Source: Candidatus Saccharimonadota bacterium (GTDB lineage: Bacteria > Patescibacteriota > Gracilibacteria > BD1-5 > UBA2023). From it: DNA of 32,000 bases. Positions 2 to 23,609 of this stretch are shown piece by piece; the first letter of the stretch is position 1, and each line of letters opens with the position of its first letter. The notes below the pieces were generated by a model that saw only the letters and a program-made list of their open reading frames with translations, did not search any database and had not been told where the DNA came from. The stretch lies in NCBI GenBank assembly GCA_042852035.1, contig BAAFHK010000002.1, forward strand, positions 257,823 to 289,822, written 5' to 3'. The translations under genes and the position numbers were made by a program.

Positions 2-289
2 AATAAGGATCGGAAGGAGATTGAAGAGATCGATAAGAAATACATACCAGAAAGTTGGTATATTCAACAAATGGTTGAAGGATGATTCCTTGGTCTAATT
101 CTTTTCCTTTTCATCGTCTCAATGATTCTCTATAAGCTTTTCCGAGAAAATATTTTACTTGCTTGAATGTTTTTTTCTATTTTAGTCATGAATTTATTCT
201 TGCATACATTTGAGTCATCTATCGTTTCATTACTTCTTTTTTCTCTCATAGGACTTATTCTTGCTCCGCATGAAAAAAAATCTAGATAA
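2..289 (+). CDS. 3' end of a polytopic membrane protein (5' partial; O-antigen ligase/polymerase-like role is only a guess from context)
   Basis: The frame is open from the window edge to TAA 287-289 with TGA read as sense. The translation is strongly hydrophobic: ...GGFLGLILFLFIVSMILYKLF..AGMFFSILVMNLFLHTFESSIVSLLLFSLIGLILAPHEKKSR. It sits directly upstream of a glycosyltransferase. Confidence 0.45.
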
Positions 290-1415
290 TAAAATTCATA
301 TACTTTTTTGTTCACGACTTGTGAAAGAAAAAGGAGTAGATATTCTTTTAGAAGTAATAAAGAAGTGTCTATCGGACCCTCTCTTTTCTGAGAAATGTAT
401 CTGGCATATAACGAGTGACTGAGATTTTGTGAATGAAATAAAAGATTTGAGCTCTCAACATGAAACAGAAGTAAAATATTATGGAAAAATTTCACAAAAT
501 GATCTTGCTTCGCTTATGAGAAGGGTAGATTTTCTTTATATGCCTTCTCGATTTCTTGAAACATTTTGACTCACTGCCCTTGAATCACTCGCTTGTTGAA
601 CAGGAGTAATCGGTTTTAAGAAGGGTGGCCTGAGGGATTTTATTGCTGATGATTGTTCTCTTGATGAATCTAATCCAATAGAATCAAGTATGAATTTTCT
701 GAAATATTATTTATCATGAAATTATCAATCCAAATCTATTGAAATTCAACCGTATGCGAGAGAAAAATGGGCACAATGATTGAAAAAGATATTTCCAGTC
801 GAATCAAATATCTTTATTCTTCATGACTATAATGAGCGAATTTGATGAGCAGAGGCCTATATTGATAATCTCTGTGATTATCTTCCGAATATTTCATATC
901 GTATAGTTCGTTCAAGTTATCAGGGATTAACATCGCCCATAAAAAGAAGAGTCATGTTTATCTTCTCGATTTTTGCATTCTGGAGATGAATTGTTGTGAA
1001 AAGGAAGTTGTCTTTAGTAAAACCAGATATTATATGGATGCATTCGATTCTTAGGTATTATTGATATTGGTGACTGAGATCAGTAGCAAAATATTCTCAG
1101 AGAAATAATGTTCCAGTCTATCTGAGTCATCATGATGTTTGATTTATTACACCATTTCCTCAGTTTATTTACAGTGAATCACAAATTCCAATTAACGCCT
1201 CACTCCAGGAGTTTCTTAGAGGGTTGAAATGAAAACGGAGGTTTATTGCCATTTTCAAATGGCTTTATATAAGGCTTTTACGAAATGCCTTCCCAAAGAA
1301 TATGAAACATATAATATTTTCCTCGTTCCTTAAAGATCATATAATGAATCATTTTCAAGGTGCTTCAGTGCATATTCTTCCGCATACCTATGATGAGAAT
1401 ATTTTTCACCTATAG
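270..1415 (+). CDS. GT4-family (GT-B fold) glycosyltransferase with apparently circularly permuted domain order
   Basis: ATG 270 to TAG 1413-1415, 381 codons, with in-frame TGAs read as Gly. The first ~165 aa look like a GT4 C-terminal domain: KIHILFCSRLVKEKGVDILL, and PSRFLETFGLTALESLACGTGVIG with E-x7-E at nt 558-584. The following ~200 aa look like a GT4 N-terminal domain: IFILHDYNERIGGAEAYI (GG = TGA TGA at 843-848), KPDIIWMHS, VPVYLSHHDV. The ORF ends ...IIFSSFLKDHIMNHFQGASVHILPHTYDENIFHL, the segment that normally precedes the C-domain. Confidence 0.7.
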
Positions 1416-3735: not shown

Positions 3736-5052
3736 ATGCTTGAAAAATTTAAAAAACTCATTCCTCTTGATTCCCCAATCCGACTCACTTGGCATTATCT
3801 TATGGGATGGCTTGCTTATCTTTCCTCTGGAAATCCAGCAAAGGATATGATAGTAATAGGAGTAACTGGTACAAAAGGGAAGACTACAACCTGTAATCTT
3901 ATTGCAAAAGGATTGAGTGCGAATGGAAAAAAAATCGCCATGTTTACTACGGTAAATATGATTATTGGCGATATTGAAGAGGAAAATACTCTCAAAATGA
4001 CCACTCCATCACCCTGGCAAGTTTGGGAATTTATACGACGAGCAAAATTAGCTGGTTGTGAATTCCTTATTATGGAAACATCTTCACATGCGCTTTTTTA
4101 TCACAGAGTCCATGGGCTTAGATATGATGTAGCAGTCATGACGAATATATCTCAGGATCACCTTGATCTTCATCGAACAATGGAGAATTATGTTAATACA
4201 AAACTTCTTCTCTTTAAGAATCTCTACAAATATTGAATCCGCAGAGATGTAAGAAAGGTTTGAGTCGTAAATATCGATACTGAATATAGCGAAAAGTTCC
4301 TTTCGAAAGATATCGTTGTTGATGCGATGCATACTTATGGTATATGACCAAGAGCAAGCATTCGTGCAGAAAATATTGAGGCAAAAGAAATGGGTATCTC
4401 TTTCGATGTGCGTATGGCTTCAAGTAAGTTTCATATAGATTCCAAGCTTCAAGGGGAGTTTAATGTTATGAATATTCTTGCTGCCACAGCTGTGCTTATT
4501 TCTCAAAAAGTACCCCTAGAAATTATAACCAAAACAATATCACTTGTTGGATGAGTGCCAGGAAGACTTGAGGAGATTCCTAATTTAAGATGATGAAAAA
4601 TATTTGTTGATTATGCTCATACCGAAGAATCCCTCAGGAGTGTTCTTGATACTATAAAAAAGATTGAATGAACAAAGCGTACTATTCTTCTTTTTTGAGC
4701 CACAGGTGATAGAGATAAAACAAAACGCCCGAAAATGGGGCGAGTTGCTGACACTATGGCTGATGTAATTATACTCACGGACGATGATACATATACTGAG
4801 GATTCACTTGCAATTATTAGGCAAGTAACCGAAGGGATTTCGAGAAGAGAAGGTGAGAATTTCTGGATTGTTCCAGATCGTGAAGATGCTATCCGTACAG
4901 CGCTTCTTATGCTTCACCCTTGAGATGTTCTCCTTGCCGCAGGGAAGGGCGCAGAAACTGTTCTTGTGACTCAAGCTGGCCCGATACCCTGGAATGATAG
5001 GAAGGTTATTGAGCGAATCCTTATGGAGATCGAGAGTCAGGTGATAGCTTAA
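3736..5052 (+). CDS. murE: Mur ligase family protein, MurE-like, lacking most of the N-terminal UDP-binding domain
   Basis: ATG 3736 to TAA 5050-5052 (438 aa). The P-loop GVTGTKGKTT is already at residue ~43. Other motifs: METSSHAL, MTNISQDHLDLHRTMENY, FVDYAHTEESL, TGDRDKTKRPKMG, LAAGKGAE. An in-frame TAA at 3706-3708 precludes an N-terminal extension. Confidence 0.8.
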
Positions 5053-5288
5053 TTTTTCTTTTTGAAATAATATCCTCAGTTCTTGCCTGAAAGTCGAGGC
5101 GATGGGCTCATATGAGCCTATTTGTGTTTGCAATGAGTCGAATCGCTCATGTCGATGCGTTAGCATTTAGAAGATGTAGTATGTCATCCATGACATCTCA
5201 ATTTTCGAGCATTTCCAAAACAGCATTGATCCCAGAGGATCGAGTAGTAGTAAAACAATGTTTTTCCATAAAAAAATAAGTAAAAAAT

Positions 5289-5316
5289 AAAAACTCCCTC
5301 TGAAGAAGGAGTTTTT
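5289..5316. terminator. Bidirectional-looking intrinsic terminator in the murE/aroK convergent spacer
   Basis: An A-run, then stem aactcc (5292-5297) / ggagtt (5308-5313), then a T-run to 5316. Confidence 0.5.
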
Positions 5317-5337
5317 AAGTTCTCTCAATAAGACGCT

Positions 5338-5361
5338 AAAAACCCATCCTTCAGAGAAGGA
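5338..5361 (-). terminator. Intrinsic terminator downstream of aroK
   Basis: The minus strand reads tccttc-tct-gaagga followed by tgggttttt (plus-strand stem 5347-5361, A-run 5338-5342). Confidence 0.5.
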
Positions 5362-5438
5362 ATGAGTAATAATACAATGAAGATAGAATCGATAAAAACA
5401 TTTTAGAATAGGTAAAAGTTCTGGGATAAAGAGAAAAA

Positions 5439-5939
5439 CTAGAGTAAGAATCAGAGAATATCGCTTGCGATTTCTTGAGGGGTTCTTCCTTCTATAGGAA
5501 ATCTGGGATTAAAACTTTGGTAGTGCATTCCTCGAGTGTGCATAAGGTTTCTGAAATCATTGGCATTTTGTGCAAGGGGTCGAACATTTATTGTATCTGC
5601 CATTATTCTCTCAAGGAGGAGTCAAATCGGTCATGAAAGAGAAATAATACGACCTTTTGATCTATAAATTCTCCTTACATTTTCTTCGTCGAGTAATGAG
5701 CCGCCTCAAAGAGAGATGACCCGGCTCCTAGAGTTTTGAATGACGGATAATAGGGTTTGTGATTCTAATACACGAAATACAGAGATTCAATAATGCTTTA
5801 TAAAGTCTGGTATGCGTACTTCGTAGAGTCGTTCAAACTCGGTATCGAGGTCGACGTGATGTGTCGAAAGTTTTCGAGCGAGTTCTTTTCCGACAGTACT
5901 TTTTCCAGATCAAGGAGGTCAATAGAGAAAGAGGTTCAT
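5439..5939 (-). CDS. aroK: Shikimate kinase
   Basis: ATG 5939 to TAG 5439-5441 (166 aa). N-terminus MNLFLYGPPGSGKSTVGKELARKL, with the P-loop glycines at 5919-5921 and 5910-5912 encoded by TGA. Also ISLGGGSLL. It starts 4 nt after the aroG stop. Confidence 0.8.
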
Positions 5940-10777: not shown

Positions 10778-13537
10778 TTATTTACCGTGACACTGTTTAA
10801 ACTTTTTTCAACTTCAACAAGGGCAGGGATCGTTTCTTCAAACTCAAGCGTATTTTGCTTTTTCAGAATCATTTTCTCATGTAACTTTCATTATACGTAT
10901 ATCAGGATCTGCTTCAGTGAGCGGTTCTGGCGTATACTCTGAATGTCACATGTGTCCGGCTCTTGCTGTCATTGATTGATCAAATCCCTCTTGAGCACTG
11001 TCAGTATATTTCTCGAGAAGTGATGCCTCAAGGTTTACTTCATCGATTGATTCACGAGGCCTTGCTGTGAGAAGTCATTTTATGACACGAACTCCAATTG
11101 TATCAATAAGAATTACAAATTTTTCATAGGCCTTTTCTTTATATATAATGAGAGGATTTTTCTGTGCATATCACTCAAAGGCAACTTCTTCCCTGAGGTG
11201 GGCCATACTGTCGATATGATTCATCCAGAGCTCATCGATAGAGGCAAGCGTAAGTCTTCTTTCAAATTCTGCAAATTCTTCTTCTGTTCCAGTGTTTCGA
11301 AGTGATTCAATTTTTCCAGAGAGAAGAGAAAATACTCGACTCTTCGCTTCATCGAAGCTTCAAGCCTGAGCAAGATCGTCAGCATGAATTACTTCAGCTT
11401 CAGCAAATTCATTCACAAACTCCATAATTTGGACTCAGATTTCAGAAGAGTATTCCTTTTCTTCTCCTTGAGCCATATCTATAATTCTAGAAATTTCCCT
11501 TTGAAGCATCTCAAGAATTTCACTGTGAATGTCGTTTCATGCAAGAATTCTTCCTCTTCGTGAGTAGATGGCAAGTCGATGATGATTGAGTACATCATCG
11601 TACTCAAGAATATGTTTTCTTATATCAAAATTTCTTCATTCAACTTGTTTTTGAATCGTGGTAATATTCCTCATGAGCTGCTTACTCTCAATAAGTGGAT
11701 CACTCTCAGGATGGGATTCAAGATTCGCTAGGATAGCAAAAAGTCGATTTCATCCAAATATTCGCATGATATCATCTTGAGGAGATAGCATGAATTGGGA
11801 GAGTCCTGGATCGCCCTGTCGTCATGATCGCCCTCTGAGCTGGTTATCGATACGTCGTGTTTCGTGTTTTTCTGTTCCAATGACATAAAGTCAACCAAGT
11901 GGGTACTCTTGCATTCCTGCAGCTCATTCGAGCTTAACTGATCCTGTAAGGGTACGGACACGTTCATCGATTTTGATATCTGTACCTCGTCATGCCATAT
12001 TAGTTGCTATAGTCACTGCTCAATATTGACCAGCAGAAGCTATTATATCAGCTTCACGTGCATCTTGTTTTGCATTGAGTACTTGATGTGGAACTCATTC
12101 TTTCTCAAGAAGGTTAGAGAGATACTCACTTTTTGCTACCGAAACTGTTCCTACAAGTATAGGCTGACCTTTTTCGTGAAGGGCTTTAATTACTCGTACA
12201 AGATAGGCATACTTTCCTTTCTCTGTTCGAAAGAGGAGATCTCAACGATCGCTTCGTTTAATCGGTTTATTGGTTGGAATTTGTATCACCTCAAGATGAT
12301 ATATCTTGTAAAACTCTTCTTCTTCAGTTTTTGCAGTACCAGTCATACCTGCAAGTTTTGGATACAGTCTGAAATAATTCTGAAATGTTACGGAAGCAAG
12401 TGTGCGAGACTCTTGTTGTATGGTCACCGATTCTTTTGCTTCAATTGCTTGATGAAGTCCATCAGAGTATCGTCTTCCTGGAAGGACTCGACCTGTATGC
12501 TCGTCAATAATAAGAATCTCATCATTTCGAACGAGATAATCGATATCCTTTTTATAGACACTAGCTGCCTTCAGAGCATTCTCTACATGATGAAGATCAT
12601 TATAATGTTGGCTTACGTAGATATTATCAACTCACAGAAACTCCTCAATCTTTCGTATGCCTTCTTCGGTAAGTGTTGCAGTTTTTTGTTTCTCATCAAT
12701 TTTATAGTGAATTCCCTCATCGAGTGAGCGTGCAAGAGCTGCAAATCGTGGATACTTACTCGTAGGTTCAGCATCAGGAGCGGAGATAATGAGCGGAGTT
12801 CTTGCTTCATCAATGAGTATGGAGTCAACTTCATCAACGATTGCAAACCAACGCTTTCTCATAACCTGCCTATCATCTCGAACAGCCATATTGTCACGAA
12901 GGTAGTCGAATCAAAGCTCATTATTGGTTGCATATACTATATCTGCACTATATGCAGCTTTTTTTTGCTCAAATGATTGTCAATGGGTGATGACATCAAC
13001 CTTGAGACCAAGAGTATTGTAAATTATTCACATCTCAAGAGCATCACGTCGAGCAAGGTAGTCATTAACCGTAACAATGTGTACTCAATATCCAGTAAGA
13101 GCATTTAGGTATGCAGGGAGGGTAGCAACAAGCGTCTTTCCTTCTCATGTTCGCATTTCGGCAATATTACCATCATGAAGCGTTAAGGCTCAGATAATCT
13201 GAACATCATAAGGTATCATATTCCATGTTATGGATTTTTCTCATCAGATACTGAATTCTTGTCCATAAATCAATTCACAAGCTCTTCTATGGAGAGCAAA
13301 TGCTTCATGCTTTATTGATTCGAGTATTTCACGGATTTTAATTTTATCCTCATCTTTTTCTATATCGAGTCATTGAAATCGAGATTGAAATTCATGAGTT
13401 TTTGCCTGAACTTGATCTATAGAGCTGATTTCTTCACGAAACTTTGTTTCAATAGATTTAATAATTTCAAGTTCTTTCTGATATTGTTTGAGTTTTTTTG
13501 TACTTGGGTCACCAAAGAGGAGAGATAAAAGCCACAT
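10778..13537 (-). CDS. secA: Preprotein translocase ATPase SecA
   Basis: ATG 13537 to TAA 10778-10780 (919 aa). Motifs: [96 protein letters not shown], and the C-terminal zinc motif [15 protein letters not shown]. Confidence 0.95.
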
Positions 13538-13677: not shown

Positions 13678-15009
13678 TTATTCAAAGAATGAATCAACTA
13701 CTTTTCTGTAGGCAAGACGATTTTTTATATCTTCGTAGTAAGTGTCACCTGGAACAAGTTTTGCACGAAGTCTATCAATAACTTCATTTGATCCGTATTG
13801 AGAAATAACCTTTTCAACTTCTTCTTTGATTTCATTTTCTGATGGCTCGATCGCTTTAAGTTCACGAATTTTTCTAAGAAGAAGTTCTGCCTTTACTCTT
13901 CGGAGAGCTTCAGGTTTTACTACCTCATCCTTGTACATTTCTGCTGACTTCTTGAGGTGATCAAGGTATTGCTTCATCTCATACCCTTGCTGCATGAGGT
14001 TTTCAGATTGTTCTCGATATACTTGTTCAATTTCAGCAGAAAGAAGAGAAGGTCCTACTTCAAACTCTGAAGCTTCAAGAATCTCCTTCATAAGAAGATC
14101 TTCATCCTTTGCTCGTGCATCGTATTCATGTTTAGCTCGAATCTCTTTTGAAAGGATTTCACGAAAGCCAGTAAGATCAGTTTTTACACCACGAAGCTGT
14201 TCGATAAATTCTTCATTAAATTCTGGTGTGTGAGGTTTTTCTACCTTTTCGATATTAACGACGAAATGTACTTTTCTACCTTTGAACTCTTCTGAATGAT
14301 AATCTTTAGGGAAAACGATATCAAAAGAAACTTCATCGTGAGATTTTGCTCCAATAAGCTTTTCTTCAAACCCGGGAATAAATGACCCAGAACCAATTAC
14401 AAGAGGATAATTTGGAACTCGAGTTTCATGGATTGCATCGCCATCCTTTCCATCATACCCTTGAGCAGATATAGTAACCCTATCACCATTTTCAACCTGT
14501 TCATGAGAAGTATCAGCTCCATCATGAGCGTGGTGTCCAGCTTCATGGAAGTGTGTAAATTGAGTCTTAATACGATTGAGCTCATTTTCTACTTCAGTTT
14601 TTTCATCAAATTCTACTGGAGACTTTTTCACTTTTATCTTTCCAAGTTTCTTTTCATCGATAGTAATCTCAGGAAATACTTCAACTTCAAGAGTAAGCTC
14701 AATTGGGTTCGTACTTTTTACCTCGGTAATCTGGCCTTGAGCTACGGGGATAATATTTTCTTTTTTGAGTACTTTTGGATAAATTTTCCCTACAACCTGA
14801 TCAAGAGCTTGCTGCTCGATGGCTGCTTCTCCATATTCTCGAACGATAACACTTTCAGGAATTGCAGAGCCTTGCTTAAAGCCCTTTACCTTTCCTTTGG
14901 TGCGAATTTCTTCGATAACTGCTTTCTTTGCTTTTTCAAATTCGACTCCAGTTTCTTTAATGTTGATAATGAGTGTATAACTATTCTTGCGTGTAACAGT
15001 AGATTGCAT
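13678..15009 (-). CDS. tig: Trigger factor
   Basis: Uninterrupted 443-aa ORF from ATG 15009 to TAA 13678-13680. GFKQGSAIPESV (the ribosome-binding-domain GFRxGxxP signature) and an FKBP-type region, VIGSGSFIPGFEEKLIGAK. It contains no in-frame TGA. Confidence 0.95.
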   Translation of the reverse strand: MQSTVTRKNSYTLIINIKETGVEFEKAKKAVIEEIRTKGKVKGFKQGSAIPESVIVREYGEAAIEQQALDQVVGKIYPKVLKKENIIPVAQGQITEVKSTNPIELTLEVEVFPEITIDEKKLGKIKVKKSPVEFDEKTEVENELNRIKTQFTHFHEAGHHAHDGADTSHEQVENGDRVTISAQGYDGKDGDAIHETRVPNYPLVIGSGSFIPGFEEKLIGAKSHDEVSFDIVFPKDYHSEEFKGRKVHFVVNIEKVEKPHTPEFNEEFIEQLRGVKTDLTGFREILSKEIRAKHEYDARAKDEDLLMKEILEASEFEVGPSLLSAEIEQVYREQSENLMQQGYEMKQYLDHLKKSAEMYKDEVVKPEALRRVKAELLLRKIRELKAIEPSENEIKEEVEKVISQYGSNEVIDRLRAKLVPGDTYYEDIKNRLAYRKVVDSFFE

Positions 15010-15029
15010 GATTTGAAATTAAAAATTTT

Positions 15030-15063
15030 AAAAAATCCCGAATAAAACGGGACAATTATATGG
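15030..15063 (-). promoter_or_regulatory. TATAAT box abutting a GC stem-loop plus U-tract in the tig 5' leader
   Basis: The minus strand reads ccaTATAATtg-tcccg-ttttatt-cggga-tttttt, ending about 20 nt before the tig ATG. No minus-strand gene lies upstream that it could terminate. Confidence 0.35.
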
Positions 15064-19089: not shown

Positions 19090-20244
19090 TTAGCCTCAAG
19101 AAAGGGTTCCTGCAAGGTTCATGATTGGCTGAAATATACCTACGGCGATAAAACCAATTACTACCGCCATCACAGCAAGGATTATTGGTTCAATCATCTT
19201 TTGAATACTTCCAATAGCAATATCAACTTCTTCATCGTAGAAGTCTGCAATTTTGATAATTGTTTCTCCTACTTGAGCTGTTTCTTCACCTACTCGAAGC
19301 ATTGATACGAGAAGATCTGGAAAAAGAGGGTCGTCTTCAAGTGACTCTGCCATTTTCATACCATTTTTTACATCATTTCGTAGAAGGAGGAGGCGTTGGT
19401 GGTACACCTCGTTTCCTACGGCACTTGATACAATACGTATTGCTTCGATTACGGATACACCACTTGAAAGAAGGTTTGAGAAAACTCGAGCAAATCTTGA
19501 GAGTACTACTTTTCTTAGAAGCGCTCAAAATACAGGAGCATGGAGAACAAGGCTATCCCAACGGTATTTCCCAGATTTTGTTTTTTTCCATACTCAAAGT
19601 AACATATAGGCAACGCCGAGGGCAATTCCAACTACGAGCCAGTTTGCTTTAAAAAAGTCACTTGTTTTGATGATTAATTTTGTGGCGTCAGGGAGTTTTT
19701 CAGGGTCTCCAAAAAATCATGTTAGCACTGGAATAACTTTCACCATAAGAACGGTAACTATACCAGCCATACCAACTATAAGAAGTATTGGATAGGTCAT
19801 AGCACCTTTAATTTTTCTGGTGATTGAGTCAACTTTTTCTGTTTGGTCTGCAATTTGAAGCAGGGCCATATTGAGTTTACCGGTTCTTTCTCAGGCTTCG
19901 ATAATAGAAATTTCTGCATCAGAAAAACATCAGTAATAATCTGCAAGGGCTTCATGCATTGTTCTTCATCACTGGACCCGGTCTATCATAAAATTGTAGA
20001 ACTTTATCATATTCTTATCTTTTTCTTGTTTCTTAAGCGCAGAAAGGCTTTTTAAAACAGTAAGACTGGCATTTACCATTGTTGCCATGATTCGAAAAAA
20101 TATCACCTTTTGTCTGAGTTTAATCGTTGCTCATTTAAAGAGAAGATTTTGTAGATAGGAGAAATAGTTTTCCTGTTTTGTTTCCTCATGGGATTCTTGA
20201 ATATCAAGAATCACTAGATCGGATGTGGTGTTTTGAGTTGGCAT
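19090..20244 (-). CDS. pilC: GspF/PilC-family inner-membrane platform protein (type IV pilus or competence pseudopilus)
   Basis: ATG 20244 to TAA 19090-19092 (384 aa; the apparent stop at 19096 is a TGA Gly). Two GspF-type repeats are present: ...DAEISIIEAGERTGKLNMALLQIAD... and ...LLVSMLRVGEETAQVGETIIKIADFYDEEVD..., with three hydrophobic segments. Confidence 0.85.
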
Positions 20245-20280
20245 AGGATTCAAAAATAGAAGAGGTTTTTATAAATGATA

Positions 20281-21543
20281 TTATACGTTCTCTTTTGCTG
20301 CTGAGTATACTTCTTCAAGCGATGTACGTCCATTAAGAGCCTTAATAATACCATCTTGTTCGAGAGAAATCATCCCATCAGTAATAGCTACTTCATTAAT
20401 CATTGTAGCACTCGCACCATCGAGGATCATTTTCTTTACATTCGGGGTAATTTCGAGAATTTCATAAATACCAACTCGTCCTTTATATCATATATTATCA
20501 CACTCTGGACATCATACTGCTTCATAGAAGATTGGATTTTGGAGTATCTCTGTTGGGATTCTCCCAAGAAGCTCATCTTTTGATGTTCGTTTCAAAGCTT
20601 TTTCCACTGAATTCTTGAGTCTTGGCTCAAGCTGCATCATTGGAATTGCTTTTTTACAGTGTTGGCAGAGCTTACGAATGAGACGTTGAGCGATGATTAC
20701 ATTGATGGATGCTGGAAGAAGAAAGGCTGGTATTCCCATATTAAGAATACGAGTTAAGGTTTCAGCAGCCGAATTCGTATGTATCGTTGATACCACAAGG
20801 TGACCAGTAAGCGCAGCTTCAATCGCGACATTTATTGTCTCATGATCACGAATTTCTCATACCATTATGATATCGGGGTCTTGACGTAGGGCAGTACGAA
20901 GTCAGAAAGCAAAATTATAACCAATATCAGGAAACATTTGTGATTGATTGAGTCCATCAATCTGACTTTCCACTGGATCTTCGAGTGTCATGATGTTCAC
21001 ATCAGGCGTATTTAGATTTGTGAGACAAGAATACAGTGTCGTTGATTTACCAGAACCAGTTGGTCATGATGTTAGAATGATTCAGTTTGGGAGGGAAATT
21101 GCTTTTTCAAGAAGAACTTTATTTTTTCATTCGATACCAAGTTGAAACAAATCGGGAATCTTTTTTGATTTATCAACGATACGCATTACTATCTTTTCTC
21201 CATGAACGGTTGGAAGTGTTGAGACACGAAGGTCGAGAGCCTTATTATTAATTACGGTTGAGAGGCGACCATCTTGTGGTATTCTTGATTCATCGATCTT
21301 TAGGTTCGAGAGAATCTTAAAGCGAGCTACTACTTGTTGATGGAGAAAATTTTGATATTCAAGAATTTCTCTTAGCTCACCATCGACACGATACCTGAGT
21401 CTCACAATATTGGTAAGAGGCTCGATATGGATATCAGATGATCACATTTCTACCGCACCTATAATCATAAGATCACAGATTTGTCATATGTTTTCTCCTT
21501 TGTATAATTGCTCTTTAAGGATTTCAATCGAAGTATTTGGCAT
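20281..21543 (-). CDS. pilB: GspE/PilB-family secretion ATPase (short form without the N-terminal N1 domain)
   Basis: ATG 21543 to TAA 20281-20283 (420 aa). Walker [11 protein letters not shown] (first Gly = TGA 21064-21066), Asp box, Walker B DPDIIMVGEIRD, His box [12 protein letters not shown], and the tetracysteine motif CQHC...CPEC typical of PilB/GspE rather than PilT. Confidence 0.9.
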
Positions 21544-21549
21544 AGGGGA

Positions 21550-22707
21550 TTACTTATCTTTTTTCGGAATAATTGAATCAAGCTCTTGTTCTAGGCTCTT
21601 GAGTGTTGTCGCTGTTTGGTTTAATGCATAGATCATCTCTGGAGAAGTACCTACTGGGAGTGTTTCATTTAGACCACGAGAATATTCATCAAATTTTCTC
21701 TGGAATGCCTTGAGTTTTGGGTTATAGACAGCACACATAACACCATCATTTTCACAGGCTCTAACATTTTCTTGTATACGTGCTTCAAGGTCAGTACGAC
21801 GTACTCTGAGATTTTCACTGAGAAACTGAATATCATCCTTCGAAACTCATCGAATATAAAAGCGAAGTGTTGCCCTTCATGTGTTGAGTTTTGTAGGGTT
21901 ATCGAGATCAAGTTTTTCTTGCATGGAAAGAGCTTCCATGGTAATAAGAGGGTTGCTCATTACTTTTGGTATACGATCTTTTGAGAGTTCACCAGTGAAG
22001 GAGAGTATATCTGGTTTTCCTGTTTGATTAATGTATTCAATAAAATCCTGAATATCTTTATTAGTTGCTTCAAAATCAAGACGAAATTCATACATTCAAA
22101 TACTTTCTGGAATTCCATCAGTTTTCTGTCAAAAGGTCAAACCCTGCATTCCAATAACAACATTGCTGTCAAAATGAAACTTCTGAAGAATAGACTTTTC
22201 TATAAAATTAACGTATTCTCGGAGTGTAATATTATCTTCTTCAATATTATTTGAAAGAGGACTCATTGTTGGTATTATGCTATTAAGCTTTGCCTTTTCA
22301 TTTTTAATAGATTCCTTTTCTTTATCTACCCGACCAAGAACAGACTTTACACACGTAAAGTAATCTACTAAACTACAGTCATATTTGTAGATACTTGATC
22401 CAGTAATCGACATATTCTCTTTGACGAGAATTTTTCTCGTGTATTCTGGATCCGTCTGGATAATTTTAATAAGTTCCGCGTATTCAGTACTTGAAGAAAG
22501 AACCTTTTGAAGGCTTGATTCACTTACTCAGGCATTGTAGGTTCATGAGTATGATATAAATGCTGCTTCAGCATCCTTTGAGAGCTGACTTATTTCATTC
22601 AGTCATGGTAGGATATACTGGTATACAACGATTGCCATTCAAATTATGGCTGCAACTTGTCAAACTGCCGTATAGGTTAGATGTTCTTTTTGTGAATTAG
22701 AGAGCAT
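21550..22707 (-). CDS. Single-pass membrane protein, putative PilO-like pilus alignment/assembly component
   Basis: ATG 22707 to TAA 21550-21552 (385 aa). N-terminal TM segment TAVGQVAAIIGMAIVVYQYILPGL, followed by coiled-coil-like sequence. The pattern YEFRLDFEATNKDIQDFIEYINQTG...GRATLRFYIRG is reminiscent of PilO ferredoxin-like domains. It ends 6 nt upstream of the pilB ATG. The function is inferred. Confidence 0.4.
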
Positions 22708-22718
22708 AGGAATTGAAA

Positions 22719-23609
22719 TTAGTTTTTATCCTGAAATGGAACATACTTGGCTTGAATAGATATTGTAGTTCTAGTATGAAAGTTTGAAAACTCTTTGCTA
22801 TCGCTGATTTTTTCCATCGAAAGCGTTGCGGGTGGGTTTATAAGGATGAACTGGCTTTTTGAGGTATCAGCAAGATTAGCTATAAATCTCAAAGCCTCAA
22901 TACGAGCTGATCAAAGGTTTCCATTTTCATCATCTTTTCCTGAGACATCACCATAAATAGAACATTGCGTACTTATATCTCATTTTCCACTTACACTTAA
23001 ACCATTACATACAATGTTATTTCCTGCTATAAGTGACTTTGAATTATTTCGTACTTCCTCAAACTTATTCATCACAACATCCATATGAAGCTTCTGTTTA
23101 TAGGTTTCCTCGGCAAATCTCTTTTCTGGTGATGTGGCGAGGATATTTTTTGTGAGCTTGATAGGAATGTATTCGTTAAGTTTTTCAACTATTTGAGATT
23201 CCAGATCAGAATTCATCTTATTAAAGGTGTTCTTTATATTGAGAAGTGTTTCACAATGAAACTTCTCCCTATATTCATCACTGAGTGAGATTGAATAGTT
23301 GAGATATGGACAAAGAAAAGAATAGTTATCTTTTATTGCTTGTGCTCATCCACCTCTTTGGATATAGACGTGAAAAGATCAAAAGGCAGTAGCGATAAGC
23401 AACAGAGGGATTACATACCCAAGAATAGTTGTAGCTATCTCAAGTCAGGATTTTTGTGCTCTCCGTCCAATTGAAATATTTCCATCCCCAGTTTCTTGGA
23501 AAAATTCATTATAAGCAGCATCTGCTTGGCTCTCTGTTTCCTTTCAGGATGAAACAAATGAGACAGATTCTGTTGTTGAGGGGGTCGATTTTTTATCAAG
23601 TTCAGCCAT
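22719..23609 (-). CDS. Single-pass membrane protein, putative PilN/PilO-like pilus assembly component
   Basis: ATG 23609 to TAA 22719-22721 (296 aa). TM segment LEIATTILGYVIPLLLIATAFGSFHVYI at about residues 56-83. C-terminal region ...CSIYGDVSG..ARIEALRFIANLADTSKSQFILINPP..TTISIQAKYVP. It ends 11 nt upstream of the next gene. The function is inferred. Confidence 0.35.

What the first reader, a model, noticed from the sequence alone, without database searches (positions are those of the whole stretch)
270..1415. Single-ORF GT4 glycosyltransferase with swapped Rossmann domains (candidate natural circular permutation)
The ORF starts directly with a GT4 C-terminal (nucleotide-sugar-binding) domain, including the E-x7-E motif. 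It then continues into a GT4 N-terminal-type domain (IFILHDYNERIGGAEAYI, KPDIIWMHS, VPVYLSHHDV). It ends with ...ASVHILPHTYDENIFHL, which in canonical enzymes is the linker immediately preceding a KG-box segment like the one that opens this ORF (KIHILFCSRLVKEKG).

The total length of 381 aa is that of one normal GT4. The upstream gene is in another frame, ends at TAA 287-289 and overlaps the start. In-frame TAGs at 183-185 and 249-251 exclude an upstream N-domain in this frame. The arrangement looks like the product of tandem duplication followed by trimming at both ends. I do not know of a described permuted GT-B enzyme of this type.
Basis: partly seen in the sequence, partly recalled or inferred. 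Interest (0 to 1): 0.65.

Follow-up and report, generated by a model that had tools for sequence, protein, structure and literature searches.

The report
Naturally circularly permuted GT4 glycosyltransferase
This gene encodes a sugar-transferring enzyme whose two halves sit in the reverse of the usual order; the reversal is real, conserved across a whole group of uncultured bacteria that read TGA as glycine, and has relatives in normal-order and two-gene forms.

Summary
Read with genetic code 25 (TGA=Gly), window 270-1415 is one 381-aa ORF. A GT4 C-type, nucleotide-sugar-binding domain comes first (aa 6-128, Glycos_transf_1, E 4e-20). A GT4 N-type domain follows (aa 191-373, Glyco_transf_4).

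It is not a misassembly. More than 200 colinear C-then-N homologues exist. At least 88 species genomes labelled Gracilibacteria, Absconditabacteria or SR1 encode a relative; 80 loci were inspected.

The permutation is shown directly. Against two canonical-order relatives (P0177, P0212) the halves align crosswise. Against a doubled P0177 they form one colinear alignment.

The donor-site residues (R16, K21, E97-x7-E105) and N-domain residues (D186, E195, H288, D289, H372) are invariant. AlphaFold gives pLDDT 95.9 and pTM 0.91.

Some relatives are split into separate C-half and N-half genes. In the window's clade the gene overlaps an upstream Wzy_C (O-antigen-ligase-like) gene.

Best reading: an active retaining GT-B enzyme with reversed domain order that acts on a membrane-associated envelope glycan.

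How the permutation arose is unresolved (duplication and trimming versus fission and re-fusion).

Reversed Alg13-Alg14 fusions in amoebae are a precedent, so this is a new variant of a known kind.

The parts
2..289 (+). 3' end of the upstream Wzy_C-family (O-antigen ligase/polymerase-like) membrane protein gene. It overlaps the glycosyltransferase start by 20 nt.
   Evidence: The 95-aa fragment is 63% identical (E 2e-38) to residues 337-429 of the L002 protein. That protein hits Pfam Wzy_C at 51.3 bits. The same gene lies directly upstream in 42 of 84 loci.
270..1415 (+). Complete ORF of the circularly permuted GT4 glycosyltransferase: 381 aa under code 25, with 12 in-frame TGA=Gly codons and a TAG stop at 1413-1415.
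270..797 (+). aa 1-176: the GT4 C-type (nucleotide-sugar-binding) Rossmann domain plus the helices that form the C-terminal crossover helix in canonical enzymes (model helices 136-148 and 164-174).
   Evidence: Glycos_transf_1 at aa 6-128, E 4e-20. The family profile matches chain positions of about 190-460 in full-length GT4/GT5 PDB chains (GlgA 251-412, PimB 204-345). Foldseek matches C-domains of GlgA and starch synthases over about 155-165 columns. Secondary structure.
315..332 (+). R16-x4-K21 (SRLVKEKG), the phosphate-binding 'KG box' of the donor site.
   Evidence: R16 and K21 are invariant in 55 sequences. The role is assigned from general GT4 knowledge.
558..584 (+). The E-x7-E motif (E97 TFGLTAL E105) within the family signature MPSRFLETFGLTALE.
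   Evidence: M91, P92, S93, F95, E97, F99 and L101 are invariant, and E105 is at least 90% conserved. The motif aligns with the EX7E region of P. abyssi GlgA.
798..1412 (+). aa 177-381: the GT4 N-type (acceptor-side) Rossmann domain. It ends inside what is the inter-domain linker in canonical enzymes.
   Evidence: Glyco_transf_4 at aa 191-373. 32 of 55 members hit it. The AF2 model of this half alone has pLDDT 92.6. Its best PDB match is the GT4 enzyme GlgM, 6tvp, TMq 0.56, E 6.5e-6. It aligns with residues 3-199 of canonical-order P0177.
843..854 (+). G192-G193-A194-E195, the glycine-rich loop after the first strand of the N-type domain. Both glycines are encoded by TGA.
   Evidence: E195 is invariant, and D186 just upstream is invariant. 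Codons read.
1128..1136 (+). The H287-H288-D289 motif of the N-type domain, a candidate catalytic or acceptor-side His.
   Evidence: H288 and D289 are invariant.

Best explanation
Window 270-1415 encodes a functional retaining GT-B glycosyltransferase of the GT4 type. Its polypeptide is circularly permuted relative to every characterised GT4.

**Chain topology.** The chain starts with the nucleotide-sugar-binding (canonically C-terminal) Rossmann domain. It runs through the helices that normally end the protein and pack back onto the other domain. It then continues directly into strand 1 of the acceptor-side (canonically N-terminal) Rossmann domain. It stops inside what is normally the inter-domain linker. 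In effect the canonical termini are joined and the canonical linker is cut. The two domains are therefore tethered by one crossing instead of two, yet still form the usual inter-domain catalytic cleft within one chain.

**Distribution.** This order is the standard form of a large family in the TGA=Gly lineages (Gracilibacteria, Absconditabacteria/SR1). The same family also contains rare canonical-order members, and members split into separate C-half and N-half genes.

**Function (inferred).** In the window's clade the gene is translationally coupled to a Wzy_C-type membrane protein and lies near FtsW/RodA and a Mur ligase. The enzyme most likely adds a sugar from an NDP-sugar to a membrane-associated acceptor at the cytoplasmic face. 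The acceptor would be a lipid-linked glycan or a glycolipid anchor. The Wzy_C partner would then ligate or polymerise the product on the outer face.

**Shown:** gene, code, domain order, permutation, family conservation, conserved active-site residues, synteny. **Inferred:** catalytic activity, the intramolecular cleft, the acceptor and the pathway.
For: - **Code and ORF:**
- **Domain order:** (216 C-N of 254 relatives).
- **Independent assemblies:** relatives occur in at least 88 species genomes. These include a complete 1.0-Mb chromosome (CP060225.1) and a 1.1-Mb contig. The window protein's own contig is 290 kb.
- **Permutation proof:** P0001 181-378 aligns with P0177 3-199 (E 4e-16), and P0001 7-125 aligns with P0177 208-354 (E 7e-7). 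On P0177x2 there is one HSP, 7-378 to 208-608 (E 1.8e-22). The permuted relative P0133 gives 2-385 to 207-602 at 34% identity, E 2.3e-46.
- **Canonical order of P0177:** confirmed by Pfam, Glyco_transf_4 at 13-194 then Glycos_transf_1 at 200-380.
- **Conserved catalytic set in both halves:** R16, K21, E97, D186, E195, R262, H288, D289, K330 and H372 are invariant, and E105 is at least 90% conserved.
- **Structure:** the full-length AF2 model has pLDDT 95.9 and pTM 0.91, with alternating strand-helix elements in each half as in Rossmann-like domains.
- **Foldseek, full length:** the sequential aligner covers only one domain of full-length GT4/GT5 structures, about 160 columns at TMq about 0.35, as a permutation predicts.
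- **Foldseek, N-half:** the best match is the GT4 enzyme GlgM.
- **Operon:** the Wzy_C gene is upstream and overlapping in the window and directly upstream in 42 of 84 loci.
Against: - No coordinates were available. The geometry of the cleft in the full-length model could not be superposed on a canonical GT-B with a permutation-aware aligner.
- The N-type domain of this particular protein scores below Pfam's cut-off (22.7 vs 28.5 bits).
- HMMER profiles of the N-half find no PDB chain by sequence.
- The N-half structural match is only moderate (TMq 0.56) and is mixed with generic Rossmann folds.
- Split relatives show that the halves can work, if they work at all, as separate chains. An intermolecular active site is therefore not excluded.
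- The Wzy_C pairing is absent from the more distant half of the family, so the functional inference holds at most for the window's clade.
- No donor or acceptor specificity can be read from the sequence.
Confidence: 0.8

Rival explanations
1. The active site is formed in trans. The C-type domain of one chain pairs with the N-type domain of another (a domain-swapped dimer or oligomer), as the split two-gene relatives must do. The single chain would then be two linked subunits and not an intramolecular GT-B.
For: Relatives encode the halves as separate genes. In L086 the C-half gene (3910-4449) and the N-half gene (5001-5600) are separated by a Sua5/YrdC gene. Lone N-half genes occur on several contigs. 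Lone C-half genes occur in L075, L077 and L080. With only one tether between the domains, swapping is sterically conceivable.
Against: The AF2 monomer model is confident as a whole (pTM 0.91). This would be unusual if the two domains had no defined intramolecular packing. The junction is short (about 19 residues from W167 to D186) and well ordered, with pLDDT above 90.
Confidence: 0.12
2. It is a fusion of halves from two different GT4 genes (the C-half of gene 1 and the N-half of neighbouring gene 2), not a permutation of one ancestral enzyme.
For: Fusion of adjacent GT genes with loss of the outer halves would give the same C-N architecture. N-domains diverge too fast to trace by HMMER against the PDB.
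Against: Canonical-order relatives P0177 and P0212 match both halves of permuted members. Identity is similar in the two halves: P0133 gives 35% for the N-half and 34% for the C-half. The alignment is a single colinear one on the doubled sequence. These relatives share the family-specific motifs in both halves. This is what a single-gene history predicts.
Confidence: 0.06
3. It is an assembly artefact, or a decaying or inactive gene remnant.
For: The source is a metagenome-assembled genome with an unusual genetic code. Under table 11 the ORF looks shattered.
Against: The same architecture occurs in most of the 80 loci inspected, from independent projects (NCBI, ENA, JGI, Logan). These include a complete chromosome. 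The ORF is intact under code 25. Catalytic residues are invariant over sequences as little as 24% identical to the window protein. Synteny is conserved.
Confidence: 0.01

Closest known systems
Canonical GT4 retaining glycosyltransferases (Pfam Glyco_transf_4 + Glycos_transf_1; for example PimA, GlgM, WaaG, MshA, and the related GT5 GlgA)
   Same: The two domain types are the same. It has the same donor-site motifs (R-x4-K-G and E-x7-E), a glycine-rich loop after N-domain strand 1, and a conserved N-domain His. Total length is similar at about 380 aa.
   Different: The domain order is reversed within the chain. The canonical linker is cut, the canonical termini are fused, and the domains are joined by one covalent crossing instead of two. 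No NCBIfam full-length model fits.
Alg13-Alg14 fusion proteins with reversed domain order in Entamoeba histolytica and Dictyostelium discoideum (GT-B, MurG/Alg13-14/EpsE-F clade)
   Same: It is a GT-B enzyme whose donor-binding (C-type) half precedes the acceptor or membrane (N-type) half in one polypeptide. It belongs to a clade that also has split two-gene forms and canonical-order fusions. The paper interprets this as a split followed by re-fusion 'with gene order inversion' (PMC8993221).
   Different: It is a different family: inverting, Glyco_tran_28_C/Alg14 domains, and none of these hit here. Those proteins are eukaryotic and sporadic. Here the reversed order is the dominant state of a large bacterial GT4 family.
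Split GT-B enzymes (Alg13/Alg14; EpsE/EpsF-type heterodimers)
   Same: Some members of this family encode the halves as separate genes.
   Different: The window gene itself is a single fused chain. My searches found no described split enzyme for GT4.
Canonical-order members of the same family (P0177 = L085 1664-2893; P0212 = L093 2491-3729)
   Same: They share the family motifs in both domains, come from TGA-recoded hosts, and are 26-37% identical per half.
   Different: They have N-then-C order and a continuous linker of 26 residues between the PH motif and the R of the KG box. They are rare (2 of 254) and sit nested inside a permuted clade in a crude NJ tree.

Membership tests
GT4-type GT-B glycosyltransferase | Nucleotide-sugar-binding Rossmann domain (Pfam Glycos_transf_1) above the curated cut-off | tested here: met
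   72.5 bits against a cut-off of 26.4, at aa 6-128. 55 of 55 family members hit it.
GT4-type GT-B glycosyltransferase | E-x7-E motif and the R/K phosphate-binding pair in the donor domain | tested here: met
   R16, K21 and E97 are invariant, and E105 is at least 90% conserved. The motif aligns with the same region of GlgA.
GT4-type GT-B glycosyltransferase | Acceptor-side Rossmann domain of the Glyco_transf_4 type | tested here: met
   The query alone scores 22.7 bits, below the 28.5 cut-off. However, 32 of 55 members hit it, best E 6.7e-11. The homologous stand-alone N-half scores 45.3 bits and P0177 scores 28.6 bits. The best Foldseek match of the N-half model is the GT4 enzyme GlgM.
GT4-type GT-B glycosyltransferase | Canonical chain order: N-type domain, linker, C-type domain, C-terminal crossover helix | tested here: not met
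   The order is C-type then N-type. This is the feature that makes it a variant. It is homologous to GT4 but does not share its topology.
GT4-type GT-B glycosyltransferase | Two Rossmann domains facing each other across a catalytic cleft | tested here: inconclusive
   The AF2 model has pLDDT 95.9 and pTM 0.91, and each half matches GT-B domains. No coordinates were available for a permutation-aware superposition.
GT4-type GT-B glycosyltransferase | Retaining glycosyl transfer from an NDP-sugar | not testable with these tools
   This needs biochemistry.
Circular permutant (by definition) | Crossed local alignments with a canonical-order homologue, and a single colinear alignment against the doubled homologue | tested here: met
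   crossed HSPs with P0177 and P0212. There is one HSP, 7-378 to 208-608, on P0177x2 (E 1.8e-22). P0133 gives E 2.3e-46.
Alg13-Alg14 / MurG-like reversed fusion | Glyco_tran_28_C and Alg14 (or Glyco_transf_28) domains | tested here: not met
   There is no such Pfam hit even at E up to 10. Only the architecture is analogous.
Wzy_C-coupled envelope glycan operon | Adjacent, co-oriented, overlapping Wzy_C gene | tested here: met
   It is met in the window. It holds in 42 of 84 loci and not in the distant half of the family.

The most novel reading that the evidence does not exclude
In these reduced-genome, TGA=Gly bacteria the two GT-B halves behave as exchangeable modules. The same family exists as a canonical chain, as a permuted chain and as two unlinked genes. 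This would imply that the halves assemble in trans. A stand-alone donor-binding half could then serve more than one acceptor half, giving a mix-and-match glycosyltransferase. The single-tether permuted chain would also have altered open/closed dynamics. If so, this would be the first natural system showing all three connectivities of a GT-B enzyme in one family.
Probability: 0.15. Interest if true: 0.75.

Novelty: new variant of a known kind. Interest (0 to 1): 0.56.

Why it matters
GT-B enzymes are among the commonest folds in glycobiology, and their domain order is treated as fixed. This family offers several things.

- **A natural experiment.** A large, ancient bacterial family carries the reversed order, together with split and canonical relatives. 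It shows how much chain connectivity matters for the hinge motion that drives GT-B catalysis.
- **Engineering templates.** It gives ready templates for permuted or split glycosyltransferases.
- **Annotation.** Domain-order-aware pipelines currently see only 'Glycos_transf_1' for most members. Many public entries also mistranslate TGA as Trp.
- **A lineage marker.** It marks a conserved envelope-biogenesis gene pair (Wzy_C plus the permuted GT4) in an uncultured, largely host-dependent lineage whose cell surface is poorly understood.

Tried and rejected
1. **Re-ordered profile against PDB sequences.** I moved the N-half in front (alignment A2) expecting full-length matches to canonical GT4. Scores did not improve over the native order. 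HMMER cannot carry the alignment through the divergent N-domain. Only a few hits crossed the artificial junction in register (9v0l 196-374 vs 176-351; 7qsg 186-325 vs 230-367).
2. **N-half profile alone against PDB sequences.** Nothing significant was found.
4. **Looking up the window protein's own contig.** It is not on record.
5. **tRNA scan for a tRNA-Gly(UCA).** There are no tRNA genes in the window. The code assignment therefore rests on ORF integrity and on Gly-aligned TGA codons.
6. **Literature searches for a permuted GT-B or GT4 enzyme.** No relevant hits. The only precedent found is the reversed Alg13-Alg14 fusion.
7. **Misassembly or collapsed duplication.** Rejected on the number of independent assemblies.
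8. **The Wzy_C partnership as a family-wide trait.** Rejected. It holds only for about half of the loci, the closer relatives.
9. **Polarising the evolutionary direction with an NJ tree.** Internal branches are too short (0.01-0.05) to trust. It suggests only that C-N is the ancestral state of the sampled family.

Full report
**1. The observation**

Under the bacterial code the region is a string of short ORFs. With table 25 (TGA=Gly) window 270-1415 is one 381-aa ORF with 12 in-frame TGA codons. Total long-ORF content of the window rises from 6.2k to 24.7k residues under table 25.

The TGA codons sit at glycine positions. G100 of ETFG and G110 align with Gly in the standard-code Pyrococcus GlgA. 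Two adjacent TGA codons encode the GG of the IGGAE loop.

- frame-3 TAG codons at 183-185 and 249-251;
- ATG at 270;
- upstream frame-2 gene ending at TAA 287-289;
- TAG stop at 1413-1415.

**2. Domain order**

Pfam places Glycos_transf_1 at aa 6-128 (E 4e-20). It places Glyco_transf_4 at aa 191-373, covering profile positions 1-165 of 170. The second hit is weak (22.7 bits against a cut-off of 28.5). NCBIfam models of full-length GT4 and GT5 enzymes match only through their C-terminal thirds, and that match falls on the N-terminal third of this protein. PDB sequence searches behave the same way.

The weak N-type assignment becomes solid at family level:
- 32 of 55 members hit Glyco_transf_4, best E 6.7e-11, and 9 hit Glyco_trans_4_4.
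- A homologous stand-alone N-half scores 45.3 bits.

**3. It is a family, not an accident**

The word-indexed protein search returned 150 hits at E up to 0.001. The 120 listed are mostly full-length and colinear, 360-460 aa, with identity down to 25%, from NCBI, ENA, JGI and Logan assemblies. All 120 have the C-then-N order.

A pattern scan of GTDB species representatives found 88 genomes that encode a relative. They are labelled Gracilibacteria, 'Peribacteria', SR1 (including human oral taxon HOT-345), Absconditabacterales and Candidatus Vampirococcus lugosii. They include a complete 1.0-Mb chromosome.

79 of the 84 loci examined have in-frame TGA codons in the gene. Many database entries show W at Gly positions, which means TGA was read with table 4. 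An exhaustive HMMER search with the N-half profile found 159 cluster representatives at E up to 1e-30.

**4. Direct proof of circular permutation**

Among the 254 retrieved relatives:

| Architecture | Count |
|---|---|
| C-N (permuted) | 216 |
| N-C (canonical order) | 2 |
| N-type domain only | 38 (of the 27 with a near-complete domain, 15 were classed as complete stand-alone proteins and 12 as fragments) |

The two N-C proteins (P0177, P0212) carry the family's signature motifs in both domains. Pfam confirms their canonical order. They come from independent contigs.

Aligning the window protein with them gives crossed HSPs. Residues 181-378 match residues 3-199 of P0177, and residues 7-125 match residues 208-354. 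Against a doubled P0177 these merge into one colinear alignment, 7-378 to 208-608 (E 1.8e-22). The closer permuted relative P0133 gives 2-385 to 207-602 at 34% identity (E 2.3e-46).

The new termini lie in the old linker. From H372 to the C-terminus, plus from the N-terminus to R16, there are 24 residues. The continuous PH...R linker of P0177 has 26. The old termini are joined with about 10 residues fewer (read).

**5. Structure**

AlphaFold2 with the 55-sequence alignment gives pLDDT 95.9 and pTM 0.91. The element order is as follows:
- a six-strand alternating strand-helix unit (9-130);
- two helices (136-148 and 164-174);
- a second alternating strand-helix unit (180-369).

Foldseek is a sequential aligner. 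It matches full-length GT4/GT5 structures over only about 155-165 columns (TMq about 0.35), which is one domain. This is what a permuted chain should give.

The N-half modelled alone has pLDDT 92.6. Its best PDB match is the GT4 maltose-1-phosphate synthase GlgM (TMq 0.56, E 6.5e-6). Other GT-B enzymes and generic Rossmann folds follow.

I could not obtain coordinates. The inter-domain geometry is therefore inferred from the high pTM and has not been measured.

**6. Is it active?**

The invariant columns across 55 sequences are R16, K21, M91, P92, S93, F95, E97, F99, L101, D186, E195, R262, H288, D289, K330 and H372. By general knowledge of GT4 enzymes these include:
- the donor-phosphate Arg/Lys pair;
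- the first Glu of the EX7E motif (the second, E105, is at least 90% conserved);
- the Gly-loop Glu;
- the N-domain His.

Conservation of both half-sites over such divergence argues for a working bipartite active site.

**7. Split relatives**

In L086 a 179-aa C-half gene is followed by a Sua5/YrdC gene. It is 39% identical to aa 9-131 of the window protein (E 8e-24) and hits only Glycos_transf_1. Next comes a 199-aa N-half gene that hits only Glyco_transf_4. Each gene has its own start and stop.

Other N-half genes stand alone with no C-half nearby, and one of them is seen on six contigs. Three species have a lone C-half of 180-187 aa after tyrosyl-tRNA synthetase.

So the family shows three connectivities: canonical, permuted and split.

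A crude midpoint-rooted NJ tree of the N-domain puts C-N proteins in both major clades. Most split forms fall in one sub-clade. The N-C pair is nested in the second clade. Internal branches are very short, so I treat the direction of change as open. The split forms make the second at least as plausible.

**8. Context and likely role**

The fragment at window 2-289 is the C-terminus of a Wzy_C-family membrane protein. It is 63% identical to the L002 orthologue, which scores 51 bits on Wzy_C. Its stop overlaps the glycosyltransferase start.

The order FtsW/RodA, small ferredoxin (absent in L001), Wzy_C and permuted GT4 recurs in relatives that are 34-47% identical. In L002-L004, as in the window, Dus (opposite strand) and a Mur ligase follow. 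Wzy_C is directly upstream in 42 of 84 loci. In the distant half of the family the neighbours differ, for example an RsmI-type methylase or TyrRS.

For the window's clade I infer a cytoplasmic-face sugar transfer onto a membrane-associated acceptor. The acceptor would be a lipid-linked glycan or a glycolipid anchor. The Wzy_C ligase or polymerase would then use the product. Pilin-like genes lie near some orthologues, so pilin or surface-protein glycosylation is an alternative. None of this is tested.

**9. Comparison with what is known**

The protein is homologous to GT4 but fails GT4's canonical topology.

[quoted passage not shown] That clade also contains split and canonical forms (PMC8993221; PMC4973528). 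It is a different family that is eukaryotic and sporadic.

Full-text searches found no description of a permuted or split GT4.

**Verdict**

The finding is real, robust and conserved. It is a new variant of a known kind and of moderate-to-good interest to glycosyltransferase and protein-evolution specialists.

Noticed in passing
window 1-32000: The whole window uses genetic code 25 (TGA=Gly). Long-ORF content rises about four-fold under table 25. Most genes carry 4-30 in-frame TGA codons; the SecA-like ORF at 10778-13537 has 30.
   Followed up: partly
window 13678-15045, both strands: The ORF at 13678-15009 (-), trigger-factor-like by eye, has no TGA codon at all, unlike its neighbours. The opposite strand is open over the same span (13678-15045 +, 455 codons), giving a full-length mirror ORF. 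The cause was not examined; it could be codon bias or expression level.
   Followed up: no
window 19090-21543 (-): Type IV pilus / type II secretion-type genes are present: a T2SSF (PilC-like, 175 bits) and a T2SSE ATPase (PilB-like, 417 bits). They are followed by two ORFs with no Pfam assignment: 21550-22707 had no hit and 22719-23609 was not scanned.
   Followed up: partly
public protein entries P0003-P0120 and others: Many database sequences of this family have Trp where Gly belongs (for example EKWVDIL, IGWAE), because TGA was translated with table 4. Several source genomes with in-frame TGA are labelled 'Candidatus Peribacteria'.
   Followed up: partly
L086 3910-5600: This is a split form of the enzyme. 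An unrelated Sua5/YciO/YrdC-family gene (4475-4978) is inserted between the C-half and N-half genes.
   Followed up: yes
L075 936-1499; L077 1678-2238; L080 3016-3558: Stand-alone C-half genes of 180-187 aa (Glycos_transf_1 only) lie directly after tyrosyl-tRNA synthetase. The partner N-half is not in the fetched flanks.
   Followed up: partly
L004 7141-7737; L001 1629-2198; L002 1832-2407: Pilin-like (N_methyl) genes lie next to or a few kb from the Wzy_C and permuted GT4 pair in several orthologous loci. This hints at a possible link to pilin glycosylation.
   Followed up: no
window 1-32000: ARAGORN found no tRNA or tmRNA gene in the 32 kb. The suppressor-type tRNA-Gly(UCA) expected for code 25 is therefore not in this window.
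   Followed up: yes
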